NCBI RefSeq assembly: GCF_006345805.1
Contig: NW_021825855.1
Location: 1 to 14,182, forward strand
Origin: Octopus sinensis
Lineage: Eukaryota
DNA: 14,182 nucleotides
Direction: 5' to 3'
How positions within the stretch are numbered: the stretch's first letter is position 1; every line of letters begins with the position of its first letter. A model generated the notes under the pieces. That model worked only from the letters and a program-made list of their open reading frames with translations, was not told where the DNA came from and did not search any database. Of this stretch, positions 1 to 14,182 are shown one piece after another. A program made the translations under genes and the position numbers.

Positions 1-1553
1 AGTGAAATGACTGAAACAGAGTAAAGAGAGTATATACAGGCACAGGAATGGCTGTGTGGAACCACATGGTTCCGGGTTCAGTACTGGGCTTACAAAAGAA
101 TAAGTCCTGGAGTCGAGTTGCTCGATTAAAGGCGGTGCTCCAGCATGGCCGCAGTGAAATGACTGAAACAGAGTAAAGGGAGTATATACAGGCACAGGAA
201 TGGCTGTGTGGAACCACATGATTCCGGGTTCAGTACTGGGCTTACAAAAGAATAATTCCTGGAGTCGAGTTGCTCGATTAAAGGCGGTGCTGCAGCATGG
301 CCGCAGTGAAATGACTGAAACAGAGTAAAGAGAGTATATACAGGCACAGGAATGGCTGTGTGGAACCACATGGTTCCGGGTTCAGTACTGGGCTTACAAA
401 AGAATAAGTCCTGGAGTCGAGTTGCTCGATTAAAGGCGGTGCTCCAGCATGGCCGCAGTGAAATGACTGAAACAGAGTAAAGAGAGTATATACAGGCACA
501 GGAATGGCTGTGTGGAACCACATGGTTCCGGGTTCAGTACTGGGCTTACAAAAGAATAAGTCCTGGAGTCGAGTTGCTCGATTAAAGGCGGGGCTGCAGT
601 ATGGCCGCAGTGAAATGACTGAAACAGAGTAAAGAGAGGATATACAGGCACAGGAATGGCTGTGTGGAACCACATGGTTCCGGTTTCAGTACTGGGCTTA
701 CAAAAGAATAAGTCCTGGAGTCGAGTTGCTTGATTAAAGGCGGTGCTCCAGCATGGCCGCAGTGAAATGACTGAAACAGAGTAAAGAGAGTATATACAGG
801 CACAGGAATGGCTGTGTGGAACCACATGGTTCCGGGTTCAGTACAGGGCTTACAAAAGAATAAGTCCTGGAGTCGAGTTGCTCGATTAAAGTCGGTGCTC
901 CAGCATGGCCGCAGTGAAATGACTGAAACAGAGTAAAGGGAGTATATACAGGCACAGGAATGGCTGTGTGGAACCACATGGTTCCGGGTTCAGTACTGGG
1001 CTTACAAAAGAATAAGTCCTGGAATCGAGTTGCTCGATTAAAGGCGGTGCTCCAGCATGGCCGCAGTGAAATGACTGAAACAGAGTAAAGAGAGTATATA
1101 CAGGCACAGGAATGGCTGTGTGGAACCACATGGTTCCGGGTTCAGTACTGGGCTTACAAAAGAATAAGTCCTGGAGTCGAGCTGCTCGATTAAAGGCGGT
1201 GCTCCAGCATGGCCGCAGTGAAATGACTGAAACAGAGTAAAGAGAGTACATACAGGCACAGGAATGGCTGTGTGGAACCACATGATTCCGGGTTCAGTAC
1301 TGGGCTTACAAAAGAATAAGTCCTGGAGTCGAGTTGCTCGATTAAAGGCGGTGCTCCAGCATGGCCGCAGTGAAATGACTGAAACAGAGTAAAGAGAGTA
1401 TATACAGGCACAGGAATGGCTGTGTGGAACCACATGGTTCCGGGTTCAGTACTGGGCTTACAAAAGAATAAGTCCTGGAGTCGAGTTGCTCGATTAAAGG
1501 CGGTGCTGCAGCATGGCCGCAGTCAAATGCCTGAAACAAGTAAAAGAGTAAAA
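1..1553 (+). repeat. 152-bp tandem satellite, left array (~10 monomers, runs off window start), SINE-derived
   Basis: Monomer GGCACAGGAATGGCTGTGTGGAACCACATGGTTCCGGGTTCAGTACTGGGCTTACAAAAGAATAAGTCCTGGAGTCGAGTTGCTCGATTAAAGGCGGTGCTCCAGCATGGCCGCAGTGAAATGACTGAAACAGAGTAAAGAGAGTATATACA recurs with 152-bp period (spurious ORFs step by 152: 521, 673, 825, 977...). Both halves match the head and tail of SINE copies at 3833-4248 and 5340-5825. Confidence 0.97.
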
Positions 1554-1695: not shown

Positions 1696-1755
1696 AATAT
1701 ATTTTGCTAAAATATAATTCGTTAAAATATATTTTGCTAAAATATAATTCGTTAA
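1696..1755. repeat. Perfect 30-bp tandem duplication immediately upstream of the Tc1 ATG
   Basis: AATATATTTTGCTAAAATATAATTCGTTAA at 1696-1725 and 1726-1755. Confidence 0.9.
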
Positions 1756-1756
1756 A

Positions 1757-2130
1757 ATGACAGATCTATCGGACTTTCAAAGAGGTGAAATTGTTGGTGC
1801 CCGTATGGCAGGTGCTAGCGTAACAAAAACAGCTGAATTGTTGGGTGTATCAAGAAGTACTGTCTCGAAAGTAATGACAGCCCTTAAGAAAGAAGGGAAA
1901 ACCTCCTCGTCGAAACAAAACTCCGGAAGAAAATCAAAACTTTCAGATAAGGACCGTCAGACCCTTAGCAAATTGTTAGAAATGATCACAAAAGTACAGC
2001 TCCCAAATTTACTGCAGAGCTTAATGACTACCTTCGAGAACCCAGTTTCCACAAAAACTGTTCGCCGGGAGCTGCACAAAGCCGGATTTCATGGGACGTC
2101 TGCAATCAGAGAACCACTACTTTCAAAAAC
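1757..2130 (+). pseudogene. Tc1/mariner transposase remnant (N-terminal paired-like HTH DNA-binding region only; DDE domain missing)
   Basis: MTDLSDFQRGEIVGARMAGASVTKTAELLGVSRSTVSKV...NSGRKSKLSDKDRQTL resembles a Tc1 HTH plus GRPR-like linker; VSTKTVRRELHKAGF is the second HTH. An alternative frame at ~1970-2035 reads QIVRNDHKSTAPKFTAELNDYL, which fits Tc1 better and implies compensating frameshifts. GGACAAAATAATGGAAACACC (~1592-1612) may be a left TIR remnant. Confidence 0.85.
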
Positions 2131-2204
2131 AATGGAATGGAGGGGGCCACCTGAATAAGGGAATAAAAAGGGATCCATGGATAAAAAATGGTTGAAAACT
2201 CTTG
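2131..2204. mobile_element. Probable right-end fragment of a hAT-type MITE truncating the Tc1 remnant
   Basis: GGGATCCATGGATAAAAAATGGTTGAAAACTCTTG resembles the right end of the complete MITE at 2298-2516 (AAAAAGTTTGAAAAGCACTG). No partner end or TSD seen. Confidence 0.4.
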
Positions 2205-2206
2205 GT

Positions 2207-2608
2207 TTAAGAGGACACAAACATATTTATACAGGAGAGAAACTACATCATTGTAATATCTGTGGTTAAATCATTCTCACAAAATATTCACTTAACTCAG
2301 TGGTTTTTAACCAGGGTTCCGCGGAACCCTAAGGTTCTGCCAGTACAGTTCAGGGGTTCCGCAAGAAGTTACAAAACTGCTAAAATCGGCAGTAATTTTT
2401 AATTCTCCTGTGCAGATATGTGTGCATAAGACTATTAAATTATTGCACAGGGGTTCCTCGAGCCAGTGGAATGTTTCCTTGGGGTTCCGCTCCAGCAAAA
2501 AGTTTGAAAAGCACTGACTTAACTATTCATATGGGAGAGCAACCCTATCACTGTGAGATCTGTAATAGATCCTTCTCTGAAAGACTTCACTTCATTGCAC
2601 ACACTCAT
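2207..2608 (+). pseudogene. Degenerate tandem C2H2 zinc-finger array, interrupted by a hAT MITE
   Basis: 2207-2297 translates LRGHKHIYTGEKLHHCNICG (frameshift) KSFSQNIHLT; after the MITE, 2525-2608 reads IHMGEQPYHCEICNRSFSERLHFIAHTH. These are HTGEKP-like linkers with CxxC...H spacing. Confidence 0.8.
2298..2516. mobile_element. Non-autonomous hAT (Charlie/Buster-type) MITE, 219 bp
   Basis: Termini CAGTGGTTTTTAA and TTGAAAAGCACTG (11/13 inverted match). Perfect 8-bp TSD ACTTAACT at 2290-2297 and 2517-2524, with central TA as in the Buster nnnTAnnn preference. Subterminal GGGTTCC repeats. Confidence 0.92.
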
Positions 2609-6354: not shown

Positions 6355-6508
6355 CATCGTCACCATATAACTTCTGTTTTCCATGCTGGCATGGGTTGGA
6401 CAGTTTAACAGAAACTGGTACGGCTGGGAACCAAATCAACCACCATAGTATGTTTTGACAATGCCTTTCCTAATGCCAACCACTTTGCAGAGTGTACTGA
6501 ATGTTTTT
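6355..6508 (-). mobile_element. Decayed fragment of a second dispersed repeat (probable SINE 3' part)
   Basis: CATCGTCACCAT...TTTTCCATGCTGGCATGGGTTGGAC...ATGCCTTTCCTAATGCCAACC resembles, from memory, an abundant invertebrate repeat with a (GAT)n tail. No independent copy in the window. Confidence 0.4.
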
Positions 6509-6509
6509 A

Positions 6510-6765
6510 TCAACCAAACGCATACCCTCCATCAGACACCTACCATACTCCGAACGCCTTGTTTCCCTGGGCATGGATTCACTGAAGCTCCGGCGTCTGG
6601 CGACGGACTTGGTAAACACCCACAAAGTTATCAACCACCTCACCAACAACAACACTGAACACCTTTTTGATCTCCATGTGTCCAACACACGTGGACATGC
6701 CTACAAAGTCAGAAAACAACACAGCTCCCATGACTTTCGGAAACATTTTTTCACACTCAGAGTTG
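6510..6765 (+). mobile_element. CR1-group LINE ORF2 C-terminal fragment
   Basis: TKRIPSIRHLPYSERLVSLGMDSLKLRRLATDL...NTRGHAYKV...RKHFFTLRV matches the CR1 C-terminal pattern (Y-ERL--L-L-SL--RR---D, TRGH--KL, FF--RV). Confidence 0.85.
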
Positions 6766-6873
6766 CCAACCACTTTACAGAATGTACTGAATGCTTTTAT
6801 CAACCAAACGCATACCCTCCATCAGAGACCTACCATACTCTGAGCGCCTTGTTTCCCTGGGCATGGATTCACT
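6764..6873 (+). repeat. 110-bp direct repeat of 6474-6583 (290-bp offset)
   Basis: TGCCAACCACTTT...CCCTGGGCATGGATTCACT occurs twice with a few substitutions. Confidence 0.92.
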
Positions 6874-7376: not shown

Positions 7377-7738
7377 TCTTTATATATAAAAGAGAAGTTG
7401 TGTGTCTGTCTCCTACGATTTAGACACCCACATTTTGCTGTGCAGTTTAACCAAAACCGGGTATCTTATAGTCGTGATTCATATCGAGCCCTTCTGGGTA
7501 TTAGCACTCGTCTACGATGAGTCTACAATATAAAAAAAAATTTACCATCATTTTTTCCATTTTAATGCATTTTTTCGCTATTAAATGTCTACGATGAGTC
7601 AACGATTTAAAAAAAAAATTACTATAATTTTTTTTCCATTTTTAATGCATTTTTTTGCTATATTTTGGCTATAACTCTAAAAATGCTTATATAGTTATTT
7701 CCCTTACAAACCCGAGCAACGCCAGGCGATACTGCTAG
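7377..7738 (+). mobile_element. Non-autonomous Helitron
   Basis: Starts A|TCTTTATATATAAAAG and ends with an imperfect GC hairpin CCCGAGCAACGCCAGG (7711-7726) followed by CTAG|T. Inserted between A and T with no TSD. Internal ~72-bp tandem duplication (7510-7580 and 7587-7660). Confidence 0.78.
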
Positions 7739-7930
7739 TATATATATATTAAAGTTGCAAAAATATCGCAAAAACCCGAACGTCGGGCAGTTGTGGTCAA
7801 GAATGGAATAAAATTGTGATGGCACCTGTAACATATGATTTTCCACCTGGTTTTGCATTTATATACTTAGTCGCGTACATACGTATATATATCTAGGTGC
7901 AAACGTACTAAGTCGTAGGCTTCACTTTTT

Positions 7931-7944
7931 GTGTCCATGGTAAC
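7931..7944. promoter_or_regulatory. Candidate RFX X-box within a CpG-containing unique segment
   Basis: GTGTCCATGGTAAC is close to the palindromic X-box GTTRCCATGGYAAC. Motif match only. Confidence 0.3.
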
Positions 7945-8167
7945 CGATATTTCGCAAAGGGTCACACACTCGCTCGCGCGCGCATTATGAAAAGAGTCAT
8001 ACGTCCGCACAGGAAACCGCTGCCAACAAAATAAGGAAACTTTCTGGATGTCACAATTCTTAGTAAATCATTTTCCTGGACACAGGAAGATAAACGTGCG
8101 CTAATTTTTTGCTATGAATACCTGACTAGCCAAGTAAAGGGCTTCAATTTATTCTAAACTCGGCATT

Positions 8168-8528
8168 GGATCTTTTCTGTTTGAACGGCAGTTTTTTCTA
8201 GCGGTGTCATATGCAATTGTCACCCATAATTATGACCCTAGTATCGATCTATTGCATTTCAATCTATTTTAGGGTTAGGGCTAGAGTTAGGGATGGGGGA
8301 AGGGTATATTTTTTTCTTCAGATATGTAAATAAACCCAATCTGTTTCTTAAACGAGGGACATATTCACACGGCACAGAATGTTTTTTTTTACCTCAATAG
8401 ACGTCATTGATTGGTTGAAATTGCAGAAATTGAAGAAAAAACCCAACAAATATCTTACAAACTATAGAATTTTCTCAATAAAGCCAAGAGAAAAAAGATG
8501 TTTTATAAACATATTCTACCAGTATACG
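8168..8528. mobile_element. GG-terminal MITE copy 3, uninterrupted but lacking the right end
   Basis: Left TIR GGATCTTTTCTGTTTGAACGGCAG; colinear with copies 1 and 2 up to TTCTACCAGTATACG, then replaced by the 22-bp array. Contains TTAGGGTTAGGGCTAGAGTTAGGG (8269-8292). Confidence 0.9.
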
Positions 8529-10481
8529 CATGCGCGAAAGTGTGACTGCGCATGCGCGAACGTGTGACTGCGCATGCGTTAACGTGAGACTGCGCATGCG
8601 CGAAAGTGTGACTGCGCATGCGTTAACGTGTGACTGCGCATGCGCGAAAATGTGAGTGCGCATGCGCGAACATGTGAATGCGCATGCGCGAGAGTGTGAG
8701 TGCGCATGCGCTAAAGTGTAACTGCGCATGCGCGAAAGTGTGACTGCGCATGCGTTAACGTGTGAGTGCGCATGCGCGAAAGTGCGCCTGCGCATGCGCG
8801 AAAGTGTGAATGCGCATGCGCGAAAATGTGAGTGCGCATGCGCGAAGGTGAGACTGCGCATGCGCGAACGTGTGAATGCGCATGCGCGAACGTGTAAGTG
8901 CGCATGCGCGAAGGTGCGACTGCGCATGCGCGAACGTGTGACTGCGCATGCGCGAAGGTGTGACTGCGCATGCACGAAAGTGTGAATGCGCATGCGCGAA
9001 AGTGTGAGTGCGCATGCGCGAACGTGTGAATGCGCATGCGCGAAAGTGTGACTGCGCTTGCGCGAAACTGTAACAGCGCATGCGCGAATGTGTGACTGCG
9101 CATGCGCGAAAGTGTAACTGCGCATGCGCTAAAGCGTGACTGCGCATGCGTTAACGTGTGACTGCGCATGCGCGAACATGTAATTGCGCATGCGCGAATG
9201 TGTGAGTGCACATGCGCGAAGGTGTGACTGCGCATGCGCGAATGTGTGACTGCGCATGCGCGAAGGTGCGACTGCGCATGCGCGAAGGTGCGACTGCGCA
9301 TGCGCGAAAGTGTGAGTGCGCATGCGCGAACGTGTGACTGCGCATGCGCGAAAGTATGAGTGCGCACGCGCGAAGTTGTGAGTGCGCATGCGCGAAGTGT
9401 AAGTGCGCATGCGCTAATGTGACTGCGCATGCGTTAACGTGTGGCTGCGCATGCGCGAACGTGTGACTGCGCATGCGCGGAAGTGTAAGTGCGCATGCGC
9501 GAAAGTGTGACTGCGCATGCGCTAAAGTGTGACTGCGCATGCGTTAACGTGTGACTGCGCATGCGCGGAAGTGTGAGTGCGCATGCGCGAAAGTGTGACT
9601 GCGCATGCGTTAACGTGTGACTGCGCATGCGCGAACATGTAATTGCGCATGCGCGAAAGTGTGAGTGCTCATGCGCGAAGGTCTGACTGCGCATGCGCGA
9701 AAATGTGAGTGCGCATGCGCGAAAATGTGAGTGCGCATGCGCGAAGGTGTGAATGCGCATGCGCGACAGCGTTAGTGCGCATGCGCGAAGGTGCGACTGC
9801 GCATGCGCGAAAGTGTGACTGCGCATGCGCGAACGTGTGACTGCGCATGTGCGAAAGTGTGAGTGCGCACGCGCGAAGGTGTGAGTGCGCATGCGCGAAC
9901 GTGTTAATGCGCATGCGCGAAAGTGTGAGTGCGCACGCGCGAAGGTGTGAGTGCGCATGCGCGAAAGTGTAAGTGCGCATGCGCGAAAGTGTGACTGCGC
10001 ATGCGCGAAAGTGTGAGTGCGCATGCGCGAAGGTGCGACTGCGCATGCGCGAAGGTGCGACTGCGCATGCGCGAAAGTGTTAGTGCGCATGCGCGAAGGT
10101 GCGACTGCGCATGCGCGAAAGTGTGACTGCGCATGCACGAAAGTGTGAGTGCGCATGCGCGAAGGTGTGAGTGCGCATGCGTGAAAGTGTGACTGCGCAT
10201 GCGCGAACGTGTGACTGCGCATGCACGAAAGTGTGAGTGCGCATGCGCAAAGGTGTGAGTGCGCATGCGCGAAAGTGTGACTGCGCATGCGCGAACGTGT
10301 GACTGCGCATGCGCGAAAGTGTGAGTGCGCATGCGCGAAAGTGTGACTGCGCATGCGCGAAAGTGTGAGTGCGCATGCGCGAAGGTGCGACTGCGCATGC
10401 GCGAAAGTGTGAGTGCGCATGCGCGAAGGTGCGACTGCGCGAAAGTGTGAGTGCGCATGCGCGAAGGTGCGACTGCGCATG
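8527..10481. repeat. 22-bp GC-rich minisatellite (~89 units); core TGCGCATGCGCG matches the NRF1-family consensus
   Basis: Unit TGCGCATGCGCGAAAGTGTGAC with a near-invariant core and variable spacer (AAAGTGTGAC, AAAGTGTGAG, AACGTGTGAC, AAGGTGCGAC, AAAATGTGAG and others). Copy number estimated from length divided by 22. Confidence 0.96.
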
Positions 10482-13400
10482 GCCGCAGTGAAATGACTGA
10501 AACAGAGTAAAGAGAGTATATACAGGCACAGGAATGGCTGTGTGGAACCACATGATTCCGGGTTCAGTACTGGGCTTACAAAAGAATAAGTCCTGGAGTC
10601 GAGTTGCTCGATTAAAGGCGGTGCTCCAGCATGGCCGCAGTGAAATGACTGAAACAGAGTAAAAGAGTATATACAGGCACAGGAATGGCTGTGTGGAACC
10701 ACATGATTCCGGGTTCAGTACTGGGCTTACAAAAGAATAAGTCCTGGAGTCGATTGCTCGATTAAAGGCGGTGCTCCAGCATGGCCGCAGTGAAATGACT
10801 GAAACAGAGTAAAGAGAGTATATACAGGCACAGGAATGGCTGTGTGGAACCACATGATTCCGGGTTCAGTACTGGGCTTACAAAAATAAGTCCTGGAGTC
10901 GAGTTGCTCGATTAAAGGCGGTGCTCCAGCATGGCCGCAGTGAAATGACTGAAACAGAGTAAAGAGAGTATATACAGGCACAGGAATGGCTGTGTGGAAC
11001 CACATGATTCCGGGTTCAGTACAGGGCTTACAAAAGAATAAGTCCTGGAGTCGAGTTGCTCGATTAAAGGCGGTGCTGCAGCATGGCCGCAGTGAAATGA
11101 CTGAAACAGAGTAAAGAGAGTATATACAGGCACAGGAATGGCTGTGTGGAACCACATGATTCCGGGTTCAGTACTGGGCTTACAAAGAATAAGTCCTGGA
11201 GTCGAGTTGCTCGATTAAAGGCGGTTGCAGCATGGCCGCAGTGAAATGACTGAAACAGAGTAAAGAGAGTAATACAGGCAAGGGAATGGCTGTGTGGAAC
11301 CACATGATTCCGGGTTCAGTACAGGGCTTACAAAAGAATAAGTCCTGGAGTCGAGTTGCTCGATTAAAGGCGGTGCTCCAGCATGGCCGCAGTGAAATGA
11401 CTGAAACAGAGTAAAGAGAGTATATACAGGCACAGGAATGGCTGTGTGGAACCACATGGTTCGCGGTTCAGTACTGGGCTTACAAAAGAATAAGTCCTGG
11501 AGTCGAGTTGCTCGATTAAAGGCGGTGCTCCAGCATGGCCGCAGTGAAATGACTGAAACAGAGTAAAGAGAGTATATACAGGCACAGGAATGGCTGTGTG
11601 GAACCACATGATTTCGGGTTCAGTACTGGGCTTACAAAAGAATAAGTCCTGGAGTCGAGTTGCTCTGATTAAAGGCGGTGCTCCAGCATGGCCGCAGTGA
11701 AATGACTGAAACAGAGTAAAGGGAGTATATACAGGCACAGGAATGGCTGTGTGGAACCACATGATTTCGGGTTCAGTACTGGGCTTACAAAAGAATAAGT
11801 CCTGGAGTCGAGTTGCTCGATTAAAGGCGGTGCTCCAGCATGGCCGCAGTGAAATGACTGAAACAGAGTAAAGAGATTATATACAGGCACAGGAATGGCT
11901 GTGTGGAACCACATGGTTCCGGGTTCAGTACTGGGCTTACAAAAGAATAAGTCCTGGAGTCGAGTTGCTCGATTAAAGGCGGTGCTCCAGCATGGCCGCA
12001 GTGAAATGACTGAAACAGAGTAAAGAGAGTATATACAGGCACAGGAATGGCTGTGTGGAACCACATGATTCCGGGTTCAGTACAGGGCTTACAAAAGAAT
12101 AAGTCCTGGAGTCGAGTTGCTCGATTAAAGGCGGTGCTCCAGCATGGCCGCAGTGAAATGACTGAAACAGAGTAAAGAGAGTATATACAGGCACAGGAAT
12201 GGCTGTGTGGAACCACATGATTCCGGGTTCAGTACTGGGCTTACAAAAGAATAAGTCCTGGAGTCGACTTGCTCGATTAAAGGCGGTGCTCCAGCATGGC
12301 CGCAGTGAAATGACTGAAACAGAGTAAAGGGAGTATATACAGGCACAGGAATGGCTGTGTGGAACCACATGGTTCCGGGTTCAGTACTGGGCTTACAAAA
12401 GAATAAGTTCTGGAGTCGAGTTGCTCGATTAAAGGCGGTGCTCCAGCATGGCCGCAGTGAAATGACTGAAACAGAGTAAAGGGAGTATATACAGGCACAG
12501 GAATGGCTGTGTGGAACCACATGGTTCCGGGTTCAGTACTGGGCTTACAAAAGAATAAGTTCTGGAGTCGAGTTGCTCGATTAAAGGCGGTGCTCCAGCA
12601 TGGCCGCAGTGAAATGACTGAAACAGAGTAAAGAGAGTATATACAGGCACAGGAATGGCTGTGGAACCACATGATTCCGGGTTCAGTACAGGGCTTACAA
12701 AAGAATAAGTCCTGGAGTCGAGTTGCTCGATTAAAGGCGGTGCTCCAGCATGGCCGCAGTGAAATGACTGAAACAGAGTAAAGAGAGTATATACAGGCAC
12801 AGGAATGGCTGTGTGGAACCACATGGTTCCGGGTTCAGTACTGGGCTTACAAAAGAATAAGTCCTGGAGTCGAGTTGCTCGATTAAAGGCGGTGCTGCAG
12901 CATGGCCGCAGTGAAATGACTGAAACAGAGTAAAGAGAGTATATACAGGCACAGGAATGGCTGTGTGGAACCACATGATTCCGGGTTCAGTACTGGGCTT
13001 ACAAAAGAATAAGTCCTGGAGTCGAGTTGCTCGATTAAAGGCGGTGCTCCAGCATGGCCGCAGTGAAATGACTGAAACAGAGTAAAGAGAGTATATACAG
13101 GCACAGGAATGGCTGTGTGGAACCACATGATTCCAGGTTCGGTACTGGGCTTACAAAAGAATAAGTCCTGGAGTCGAGTTGCTCGATTAAATGCGGTGCT
13201 CCAGCATGGCCGCAGTGAAATGACTGAAACAGAGAAAAGAGAGTATATACAGGCACAGGAATGGCTGTGTGGAACCACATGGTTCCGGGTTCAGTACTGG
13301 GCTTACAAAAGAATAAGTCCTGGAGTCGAGTTGCTCGATTAAAGGCGGTGCTGCAGCATGGCCGCAGTGAAATGACTGAAACAGAGTTAAGGGAGTATAT

Positions 13401-14182
13401 ACAGGCACAGGAATGGCTGTGTGGAACCACATGGTTCCGGGTTCAGTACTGGGCTTACAAAAGAATAAGTCCTGGAGTCGAGTTGCTCGATTAAAGGCGG
13501 TGCTCCAGCATGGCCGCAGTGAAATGACTGAAACAGAGTAAAGAGAGTATATACAGGCACAGGAATGGCTGTGTGGAACCACATGATTCCGGGTTCAGTA
13601 CTGGGCTTACAAAAGAATAAGTCCTGGAGTCGAGTTGCTCGATTAAAGGCGGTGCTGCAGCATGGCCGCATTGAAATGACTGAAACAGAGTAAAGGGAGT
13701 ATATACAGGCACAGGAATGGCTGTGTGGAACCACATGATTCCGGGTTCAGTACTGGGCTTACAAAAGAATAAGTCCTGGAGTCGAGTTGCTCGATTAAAG
13801 GCGGTGCTCCAGCATGGCCGCAGTGAAATGACTGAAACAGAGTAAAGAGAGTATATACAGGCACAGGAATGGCTGTGTGGAACCACATGATTCCGGGTTC
13901 AGTACTGGGCTTACAAACGAATAAGTCCTGGAGTCGAGTTGCTCGATTAAAGGCGGTGCTCCAGCATGGCCGCAGTGAAATGACTGAAACAGAGTAAAGA
14001 GAGTATATACAGGCACAGGAATGGCTGTGTGGAACCACATGATTCCGGGTTCAGTACTGGGCTTACAAACGAATAAGTCCTGGAGTCGAGTTGCTCGATT
14101 AAGGCGGTGCTCCAGCATGGCCGCAGTGAAATGACTGAAACAGAGTAAAGAGAGTATATACAGGCACAGGAATGGCTGTGTG
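10477..14182 (+). repeat. 152-bp tandem satellite, right array (~24 monomers, runs off window end)
   Basis: Same monomer and orientation as 1-1553; begins mid-monomer at GCATGGCCGCAG. Confidence 0.97.

What the first reader, a model, noticed from the sequence alone, without database searches (positions are those of the whole stretch)
8527..10481. About 89 helically phased NRF1/Ewg-type sites forming a 2-kb block at the satellite border
Seen: most units carry TGCGCATGCGCG with variation concentrated in the 10-bp spacer. The 22-bp period is about two helical turns, the core is pure purine-pyrimidine alternation (Z-DNA prone), and CpG density is extreme for this AT-rich context. Known: NRF1, Drosophila Erect wing and sea-urchin P3A2 bind YGCGCAYGCGCR-type sites as dimers, and NRF1 binding is blocked by CpG methylation. 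Inference: a possible methylation-switchable factor sink, enhancer cluster or boundary between satellite chromatin and the island. This is the best candidate for an undescribed system here; function is untested.
Basis: partly seen in the sequence, partly recalled or inferred. Interest (0 to 1): 0.8.

Follow-up and report, generated by a model that had tools for sequence, protein, structure and literature searches.

The report
Helitron-spread minisatellite of NRF1-type sites

Summary
The array is real: 89 units of 22 bp, 67 matching YGCGCAYGCGCR. It is not unique. The unit occurs at 36 other loci examined; at 30 it adjoins a non-autonomous Helitron (A|TC…hairpin-CTAG|T), in a fixed arm + array + linker layout. 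Here the Helitron arms are absent: the array cuts off a MITE at a CG overlap and joins the 152-bp repeat at GCATG. That 'satellite' is SINE-derived and found at only three assembly places; no other array borders it, and the 'island' is transposon debris. A boundary role is unsupported, and phasing is weak (34° per unit). New mutations, however, hit cores at the neutral rate. Best reading: transposon cargo amplified by palindrome-driven slippage, with NRF1 binding a likely side effect. Binding, methylation and raw-read support are untested.

The parts
8525..10481 (+). 22-bp minisatellite, 89 units; self-complementary core GCGCATGCGC (NRF1 consensus) plus spacer with two polymorphic positions; orphan copy of a Helitron-borne repeat
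   Evidence: family membership
8167..8528 (+). left part of an abundant MITE-like element with terminal inverted repeats, cut off by the array; the last two bases (CG, 8527-8528) are shared with the first unit
   Evidence: intact copy with the same upstream flank and no array at L097 (C29:10.17 Mb), 93% identical; contigs of four runs continue as the normal MITE at 8528 (table 7)
10477..14182 (+). 152-bp tandem repeat (24.4 copies, runs to the contig end) built from pieces of the dispersed SINE-like repeats; joins the array through shared GCATG (10477-10481)
   Evidence: exact 39-mer found only on C2326, C29 and C10444; the label SINE is recalled
1..1550 (+). second block of the same 152-bp repeat (10.2 copies)
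7377..7738 (+). array-free short copy of the parent non-autonomous Helitron family (A|TC ... hairpin, CTAG|T); 790 bp from the array and not joined to it
   Evidence: family has 12,139 exact 39-bp 3' ends

Best explanation
The array is an orphaned, locally expanded copy of a 22-bp minisatellite that lies inside a non-autonomous Helitron subfamily elsewhere in this genome, and it likely grew by slippage and unequal exchange between its self-complementary cores, with NRF1 binding a likely but unselected side effect. Shown: the typical copy reads Helitron 5' arm (about 300 bp, TC end), a fold-back at one core, 4-65 units, a 34-bp linker, then a further Helitron copy that supplies the CTAG end. 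Inferred: a RepHel transposase with a related 3' end moved this composite by reading through a lost terminator. Shown: at this locus the arms are absent and the array joins a MITE at CG and the 152-bp repeat at GCATG; a paralogue holds the MITE intact. Inferred: these joins are microhomology-guided template switches or deletions. Shown: the C29 copy has the same left junction but a reshuffled unit order and a second 20-unit block inside the 152-bp repeat. Inferred: units with perfect palindromes pair best and are amplified preferentially, which would explain the clean cores at expanded loci without selection.
For: Unit at 36 other distinct loci examined; 30 adjoin Helitron sequence, 23 through the same junction; among the 31 found by the unit alone, 25 adjoin. 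10 of 21 exact matches to the junction-side arm are array-free parent elements. All 18 linker copies follow a Helitron end. 47 of 47 CTAG ends are followed by T; 44 of 54 TC ends are preceded by A and the other 10 abut the next copy. 5 of 10 long RepHel ORFs examined end in an 86-92% similar terminus. Neighbouring cores pair: z = -6.7, 0 of 200 shuffles; strand inversions occur within arrays. Neutral decay in carried arrays: core 6.3%, non-polymorphic spacer 6.2%, arms 3.5% at 18 loci. Singleton mutations at the expanded loci fall 12 core to 7 spacer, near the 10:7 expected.
Against: At both expanded loci (window/C29 and C13:44.61 Mb) shared variants avoid the core (2.2-2.3% vs 6-13% in the spacer; 78-82% intact cores vs 50%); selection for binding would give the same pattern, and the amplification bias is only inferred. 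The window copy has no Helitron arm, so its route here is inferred; 6 of 36 other loci also lack arms. No 5' end matching the carrier was found upstream of the five RepHel ORFs, and no empty site of a composite insertion was tested.
Confidence: 0.75

Rival explanations
1. Same transposon origin, but the expanded arrays have been co-opted: they bind many NRF1 dimers when unmethylated and act as a selected sink or as a promoter-like element, like the NRF1-bearing 29-bp repeats that drive human TERRA.
For: Host NRF1 keeps R206, N242, R244, K221, K253, W258. Held arrays carry 914 of 4,842 genome-wide strand matches to TGCGCATGCGCR, 149 of them at this locus and its C29 twin. Cores are cleaner than spacers at two independently expanded loci. 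CpG transitions run 1.6-2 times background in arrays and 3.7 times in arms, so some germline methylation is likely.
Against: Only two expanded loci; singletons hit the core at the neutral rate. Carried arrays decay neutrally. No intact gene was seen in the window. Unit order differs between the two assembled copies. In O. bimaculoides methylation is low on transposons, though higher on satellites (PMC9476566, passages).
Confidence: 0.15
2. The array is a chromatin boundary between satellite heterochromatin and a functional island.
For: It lies between the island and the 152-bp repeat in the window and at C29.
Against: 0 of 36 other array loci border this repeat. The repeat occurs at three assembly places. 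The other satellite/island border, at 1550, has no array. At C29 a second array block lies inside the repeat, and the upstream DNA differs from the window's island. The island holds SINE-like, MITE, Helitron, Tc1 and zinc-finger remnants.
Confidence: 0.04
3. The length or the junctions of the array are an assembly artefact on a small unplaced contig.
For: The window is the whole of a 14-kb contig that begins and ends in tandem repeat. None of the contig pieces shown bridged the left junction.
Against: Units carry ordered, diagnostic variants with almost no indels. The C29 copy has the same left junction (1 mismatch in 366 bp of MITE) and shares runs of variant units. The unit is present in contigs of four runs with four organism labels.
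Confidence: 0.06

Closest known systems
Cg_HINE elements of Crassostrea gigas and DINE-TR1 of Drosophila (rolling-circle elements with central tandem repeats; PMC7492417 abstract and section 7, PMC10048060 passages)
   Same: Non-autonomous rolling-circle element carrying a variable tandem array, dispersing it genome-wide, with stand-alone expanded arrays; up to about 90 monomers are reported in oyster Helitrons.
   Different: Those are Helentron-type (subterminal inverted repeats); this carrier has canonical TC / hairpin-CTAG ends. The unit is only 22 bp, the array replaces the element's own 3' end so that the mobile unit is a multi-copy composite, and the unit is a consensus transcription-factor site.
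Canonical Helitrons and 3'-end read-through (Helraiser, HelibatN; PMC4778049 passages)
   Same: 5'-TC, CTRR-3', hairpin near the 3' end, insertion between A and T; loss of the terminator leads to transduction of downstream DNA.
   Different: The cargo is a palindrome-based minisatellite, not a gene or promoter fragment; no solitary donor of the linker was found.
Human subtelomeric 61-29-37 repeats at TERRA promoters (PMC6600276 passages)
   Same: CpG-rich tandem repeat with NRF1 sites in every unit, next to another tandem repeat; methylation-dependent NRF1 binding is shown there.
   Different: There binding and promoter activity are demonstrated and the site is subtelomeric; here neither is tested, the C29 copy is interstitial (10.5 of 17.1 Mb), and the sites are a closer match to the consensus.
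ISX element of Drosophila miranda (PMC4384637, search listing and start of abstract only; its Helitron nature is recalled)
   Same: A transposon disperses binding sites for a host factor to dozens of loci.
   Different: ISX carries single sites with refinement under selection; here tandem sites decay neutrally in the carried copies.

Membership tests
Canonical non-autonomous Helitron (carrier element) | 5'-TC and CTRR-3' termini without terminal inverted repeats | tested here: met
   517-bp array-free copy L058 and window 7377-7738
Canonical non-autonomous Helitron (carrier element) | short hairpin about 10 bp before the 3' end | tested here: met
   16-bp bulged stem-loop 8 nt before CTAG, recovered by folding; perfect 5-bp stem in RepHel-linked ends
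Canonical non-autonomous Helitron (carrier element) | insertion between A and T | tested here: met
   47 of 47 CTAG|T; 44 of 54 A|TC, the other 10 head-to-tail; ends were picked by motif
Canonical non-autonomous Helitron (carrier element) | no target-site duplication, shown at an empty site | not tested
   no empty-site comparison was made
Canonical non-autonomous Helitron (carrier element) | autonomous RepHel partner with matching ends | tested here: inconclusive
   5 of 10 long ORFs (1331-1744 aa, HUH and Y2 motifs) share the 3' end at 86-92%; no matching 5' end found within 2.5 kb upstream
Canonical non-autonomous Helitron (the window array itself) | array flanked by Helitron arms | tested here: not met
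   MITE on the left, 152-bp repeat on the right: an orphan derivative, not an element
Helentron / HINE | subterminal inverted repeats with a 3' palindrome | tested here: inconclusive
   the ends fit the canonical pattern instead; no dedicated search for subterminal repeats was run
NRF1/Ewg/P3A2 response element | sequence matches GCGCATGCGC | tested here: met
   69 exact in 89 units; consensus from PMC10810270
NRF1/Ewg/P3A2 response element | host factor with base-reading residues R206, N242, R244 | tested here: met
   one gene, five exon matches at C4:22.42 Mb; residues kept, G220 is S
NRF1/Ewg/P3A2 response element | bound in vivo, methylation-sensitive, acts on transcription | not testable with these tools
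   needs CUT&RUN, 5mC calls and reporters
NRF1/Ewg/P3A2 response element | site conserved above neutral background | tested here: inconclusive
   not in carried arrays; yes for shared variants at two expanded loci, not for singletons
Satellite-border boundary element | recurs at borders of the satellite | tested here: not met
   0 of 36 other loci; absent at the window's other border

The most novel reading that the evidence does not exclude
A Helitron built a tandem NRF1-site cassette, spread it to about 40 loci, and where it escaped and expanded the perfect sites were selectively kept, so that a few repeat blocks now hold about a fifth of the genome's perfect NRF1 sites and titrate the factor in a length- and methylation-dependent way, with block size differing between species.
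Probability: 0.12. Interest if true: 0.65.

Novelty: new member of a known kind. Interest (0 to 1): 0.3.

Why it matters
As it stands it is a clear case of a Helitron turning cargo into a dispersed minisatellite and then into stand-alone arrays, a route known from oyster and Drosophila. The unusual point is the unit: a consensus site of a conserved, dosage-relevant factor whose host orthologue is intact. The family gives about 36 neutrally decaying copies as a built-in control for two expanded, cleaner ones, which makes 'amplification bias versus selection for binding' directly testable. It also warns that motif counts for NRF1 in this genome are inflated by repeats.

Tried and rejected
Boundary by adjacency to the 152-bp repeat: rejected. 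Helical phasing and Z-DNA as special properties: weak. Solitary donor of the 34-bp linker, such as a captured promoter: none among 18 matches at up to 2 mismatches. Whether the spacer was copied from the Helitron arm or only joined to it through CTTT overlap: cannot tell. Matching 5' end on autonomous elements: not found. Sequencing runs: no RNA holder listed, which says nothing on expression. One search's arm comparison caught only 2 loci and was replaced (18 loci). A first greedy unit split mis-phased some units and was replaced by wrap-around alignment. C11257 was dropped as a near-identical copy of C9:22.56 Mb (99.3% over 6 kb). Earlier scan findings: none by place or sequence. Literature: searches listed no paper describing this repeat; the library is limited to open papers, and the repeat library behind PMC13282606 (supplements not read) may hold the family.

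Full report
Observation. The array is there as described: 8527-10481, period 22, 89.3 copies, 89 whole units by wrap-around alignment. It holds 63 exact TGCGCATGCGCG, 67 YGCGCAYGCGCR and 69 GCGCATGCGC, with none elsewhere in the window; CpG o/e is 1.74 against 0.72 and 0.61 in the flanks. Non-majority bases are 36 of 1076 in the core and 133 of 890 in the spacer, 84 of the latter at two polymorphic positions. Phasing is loose (34 degrees per unit at 10.5 bp/turn) and alternating purine-pyrimidine runs are 12-15 bp. The window is the whole of contig C2326 in a 2.72-Gb assembly. I take the genome to be an octopus from recall of its repeats; no call names it, so octopus papers are used by analogy.

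The unit is dispersed. A 30-base probe matched 62 times at 27 places, control 0; a looser two-core probe matched 208 times, of which only the first 100 were listed, so the locus count is a lower bound. Besides the window and its C29 twin I examined 37 loci and dropped one as a duplicate. Of 36, 30 adjoin pieces of one repeat family and 23 use the same junction; among the 31 found by the unit alone, 25 adjoin. None borders the 152-bp repeat.

The carrier is a canonical non-autonomous Helitron. An array-free copy is 517 bp, starts TC, ends in a 16-bp hairpin and CTAG. 47 of 47 CTAG ends are followed by T; 44 of 54 TC ends are preceded by A and 10 abut the next copy. These are the features given in PMC4778049 (passages). 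The family has 12,139 exact 39-base 3' ends; one short copy lies at window 7377-7738. The genome has many RepHel matches (150 scored); 5 of 10 long-ORF loci examined end in an 86-92% similar terminus, but I found no matching 5' end. In the array-bearing subfamily the element's last 214 bp are replaced by the array and a 34-bp linker, followed by another Helitron copy: all 18 linker matches follow a Helitron end. Of 21 exact matches to the arm beside the junction, 11 carry arrays and 10 are the parent form. Loss of the terminator with read-through to the next copy fits the model in PMC4778049; this step is inferred. The units next to the arm are inverted about one core, and larger inversions occur at C1:16.69, C7:74.32 and C13:44.61 Mb. 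Neighbouring cores pair strongly as single-stranded DNA (z -6.7, 0 of 200 shuffles).

This locus is an orphan. On the left the array cuts off a MITE at a shared CG; a paralogue at C29:10.17 Mb has the same flank and the whole MITE with no array, and contigs of four runs continue as the normal MITE at 8528. On the right it joins the 152-bp repeat through GCATG. That repeat is made of pieces of the SINE-like elements in the island (about 90% over 108 bp plus two short pieces) and its probe matched only C2326, C29 and C10444. The C29 copy shares the left junction (1 mismatch in 366 bp) and runs of variant units, but has different upstream DNA, a different right junction, a reshuffled order with internal duplications, and a second block of 20 units inside the 152-bp repeat. 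The island holds a Tc1 transposase fragment, a zinc-finger remnant below the Pfam cut-off, and SINE-like, MITE and Helitron copies. A boundary role is therefore unsupported.

The NRF1 question. The core is the NRF1 consensus, read by R206, N242 and R244 (PMC10810270, passages). The genome has one orthologue, five exon matches at C4:22.42 Mb, keeping these residues. Binding to naked unmethylated DNA is thus likely. TGCGCATGCGCR has 4,842 strand matches genome-wide against 191 for the reversed control; the 40 array stretches held carry 914 (19%), this locus and its twin 149. Of 12 solitary sites inspected, several lie in microsatellites and three in another shared repeat.

Is the site conserved? 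In carried arrays, no: at 18 loci the core deviates 6.3%, the seven non-polymorphic spacer positions 6.2%, and the Helitron arms 3.5%; across 32 arrays core and spacer do not differ (p 0.22). At the two expanded loci, yes: core 2.2-2.3% against spacer 6-13%, and 78-82% of cores intact against 50% in 548 carried units and 43% in 129 units of other orphans. In the window this holds over distinct units (15/488 vs 29/339, p 0.0008), though units are not independent. Singleton mutations at the two loci fall 12 in the core and 7 in the spacer, close to the 10:7 expected. So new mutations hit cores freely but core variants are rarely amplified. Preferential expansion of perfect palindromes, a founder effect, or selection for binding could each give this; with two loci I cannot separate them and favour the first. 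CpG transitions are raised 1.6-2 times in arrays (264/4672 vs 166/4644) and 3.7 times in arms (21/583 vs 15/1536), a modest methylation footprint. In O. bimaculoides methylation is low on transposons and relatively higher on satellites (PMC9476566, passages).

Comparison. It works like oyster Cg_HINE and Drosophila DINE-TR1, rolling-circle elements with central tandem repeats that seed stand-alone arrays (PMC7492417 abstract and section 7; PMC10048060 passages), but the carrier is canonical rather than Helentron-type. The regulatory analogue is the NRF1-bearing 29-bp repeat of TERRA promoters (PMC6600276 passages), where binding is shown. Helitrons are annotated in O. vulgaris (PMC13282606 passages; supplements not read). 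Searches listed no description of this repeat.

Verdict. Real, explained as to origin, a new member of a known kind. Interest 0.3. The boldest open reading, a selected NRF1 sink at the expanded arrays, has probability about 0.12 and would merit 0.65.

Noticed in passing
G000:C13:44,609,200-44,619,300 (L022, L023): Largest array found: over 300 units in blocks alternating with an unrelated AAAATTTT-based repeat, with strand inversions at its start and no Helitron arms; cores 82% intact; 279 of the genome's 4,842 NRF1-site matches.
   Followed up: partly
window 8530-8620, runs X1-X4: The unit is present in contigs of four organism labels. Summed depth of array over MITE is about 0.33 in X2 (organism B) against 0.01-0.03 in the others: a weak hint of a species-specific expansion; the tool warns that depth is no copy number.
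   Followed up: no
L101 (G000:C10444, about 22,200-22,500): A SINE-like element followed by about one and a half 152-bp units: a candidate birth stage or relic of the 152-bp tandem repeat.
   Followed up: partly
L005 (C1:25.15 Mb) and L103 (C1:111.18 Mb): Both arrays are split by the same second minisatellite (GGCTATTTGGG-like), so the composite picked up further cargo and moved again.
   Followed up: no
L146, L152, L156 (C1:0.19, 12.59, 16.18 Mb): Three of 12 solitary NRF1-consensus sites share flanks: another dispersed repeat carries a single site.
   Followed up: no
L050/L051 (C10:70.36 Mb): Head-to-tail tandem duplication of the whole arm + 32-unit array + linker module.
   Followed up: partly
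window 1748-2155: Tc1/mariner transposase N-terminal fragment (PF01498, E 1e-9).
   Followed up: yes
window 2200-2300 and 2519-2620: Degenerate C2H2 zinc-finger remnants on either side of a small inverted-repeat element; the second scores below the Pfam cut-off.
   Followed up: partly
window 6501-6872: Duplicated fragment that looks like a LINE 3' end (recalled); no Pfam match.
   Followed up: partly
window 7743-8528 vs L097 6573-7400: The two segments before the array occur at C29:10.17 Mb in the opposite order, suggesting a rearranged or tandem segmental duplication on C29.
   Followed up: partly
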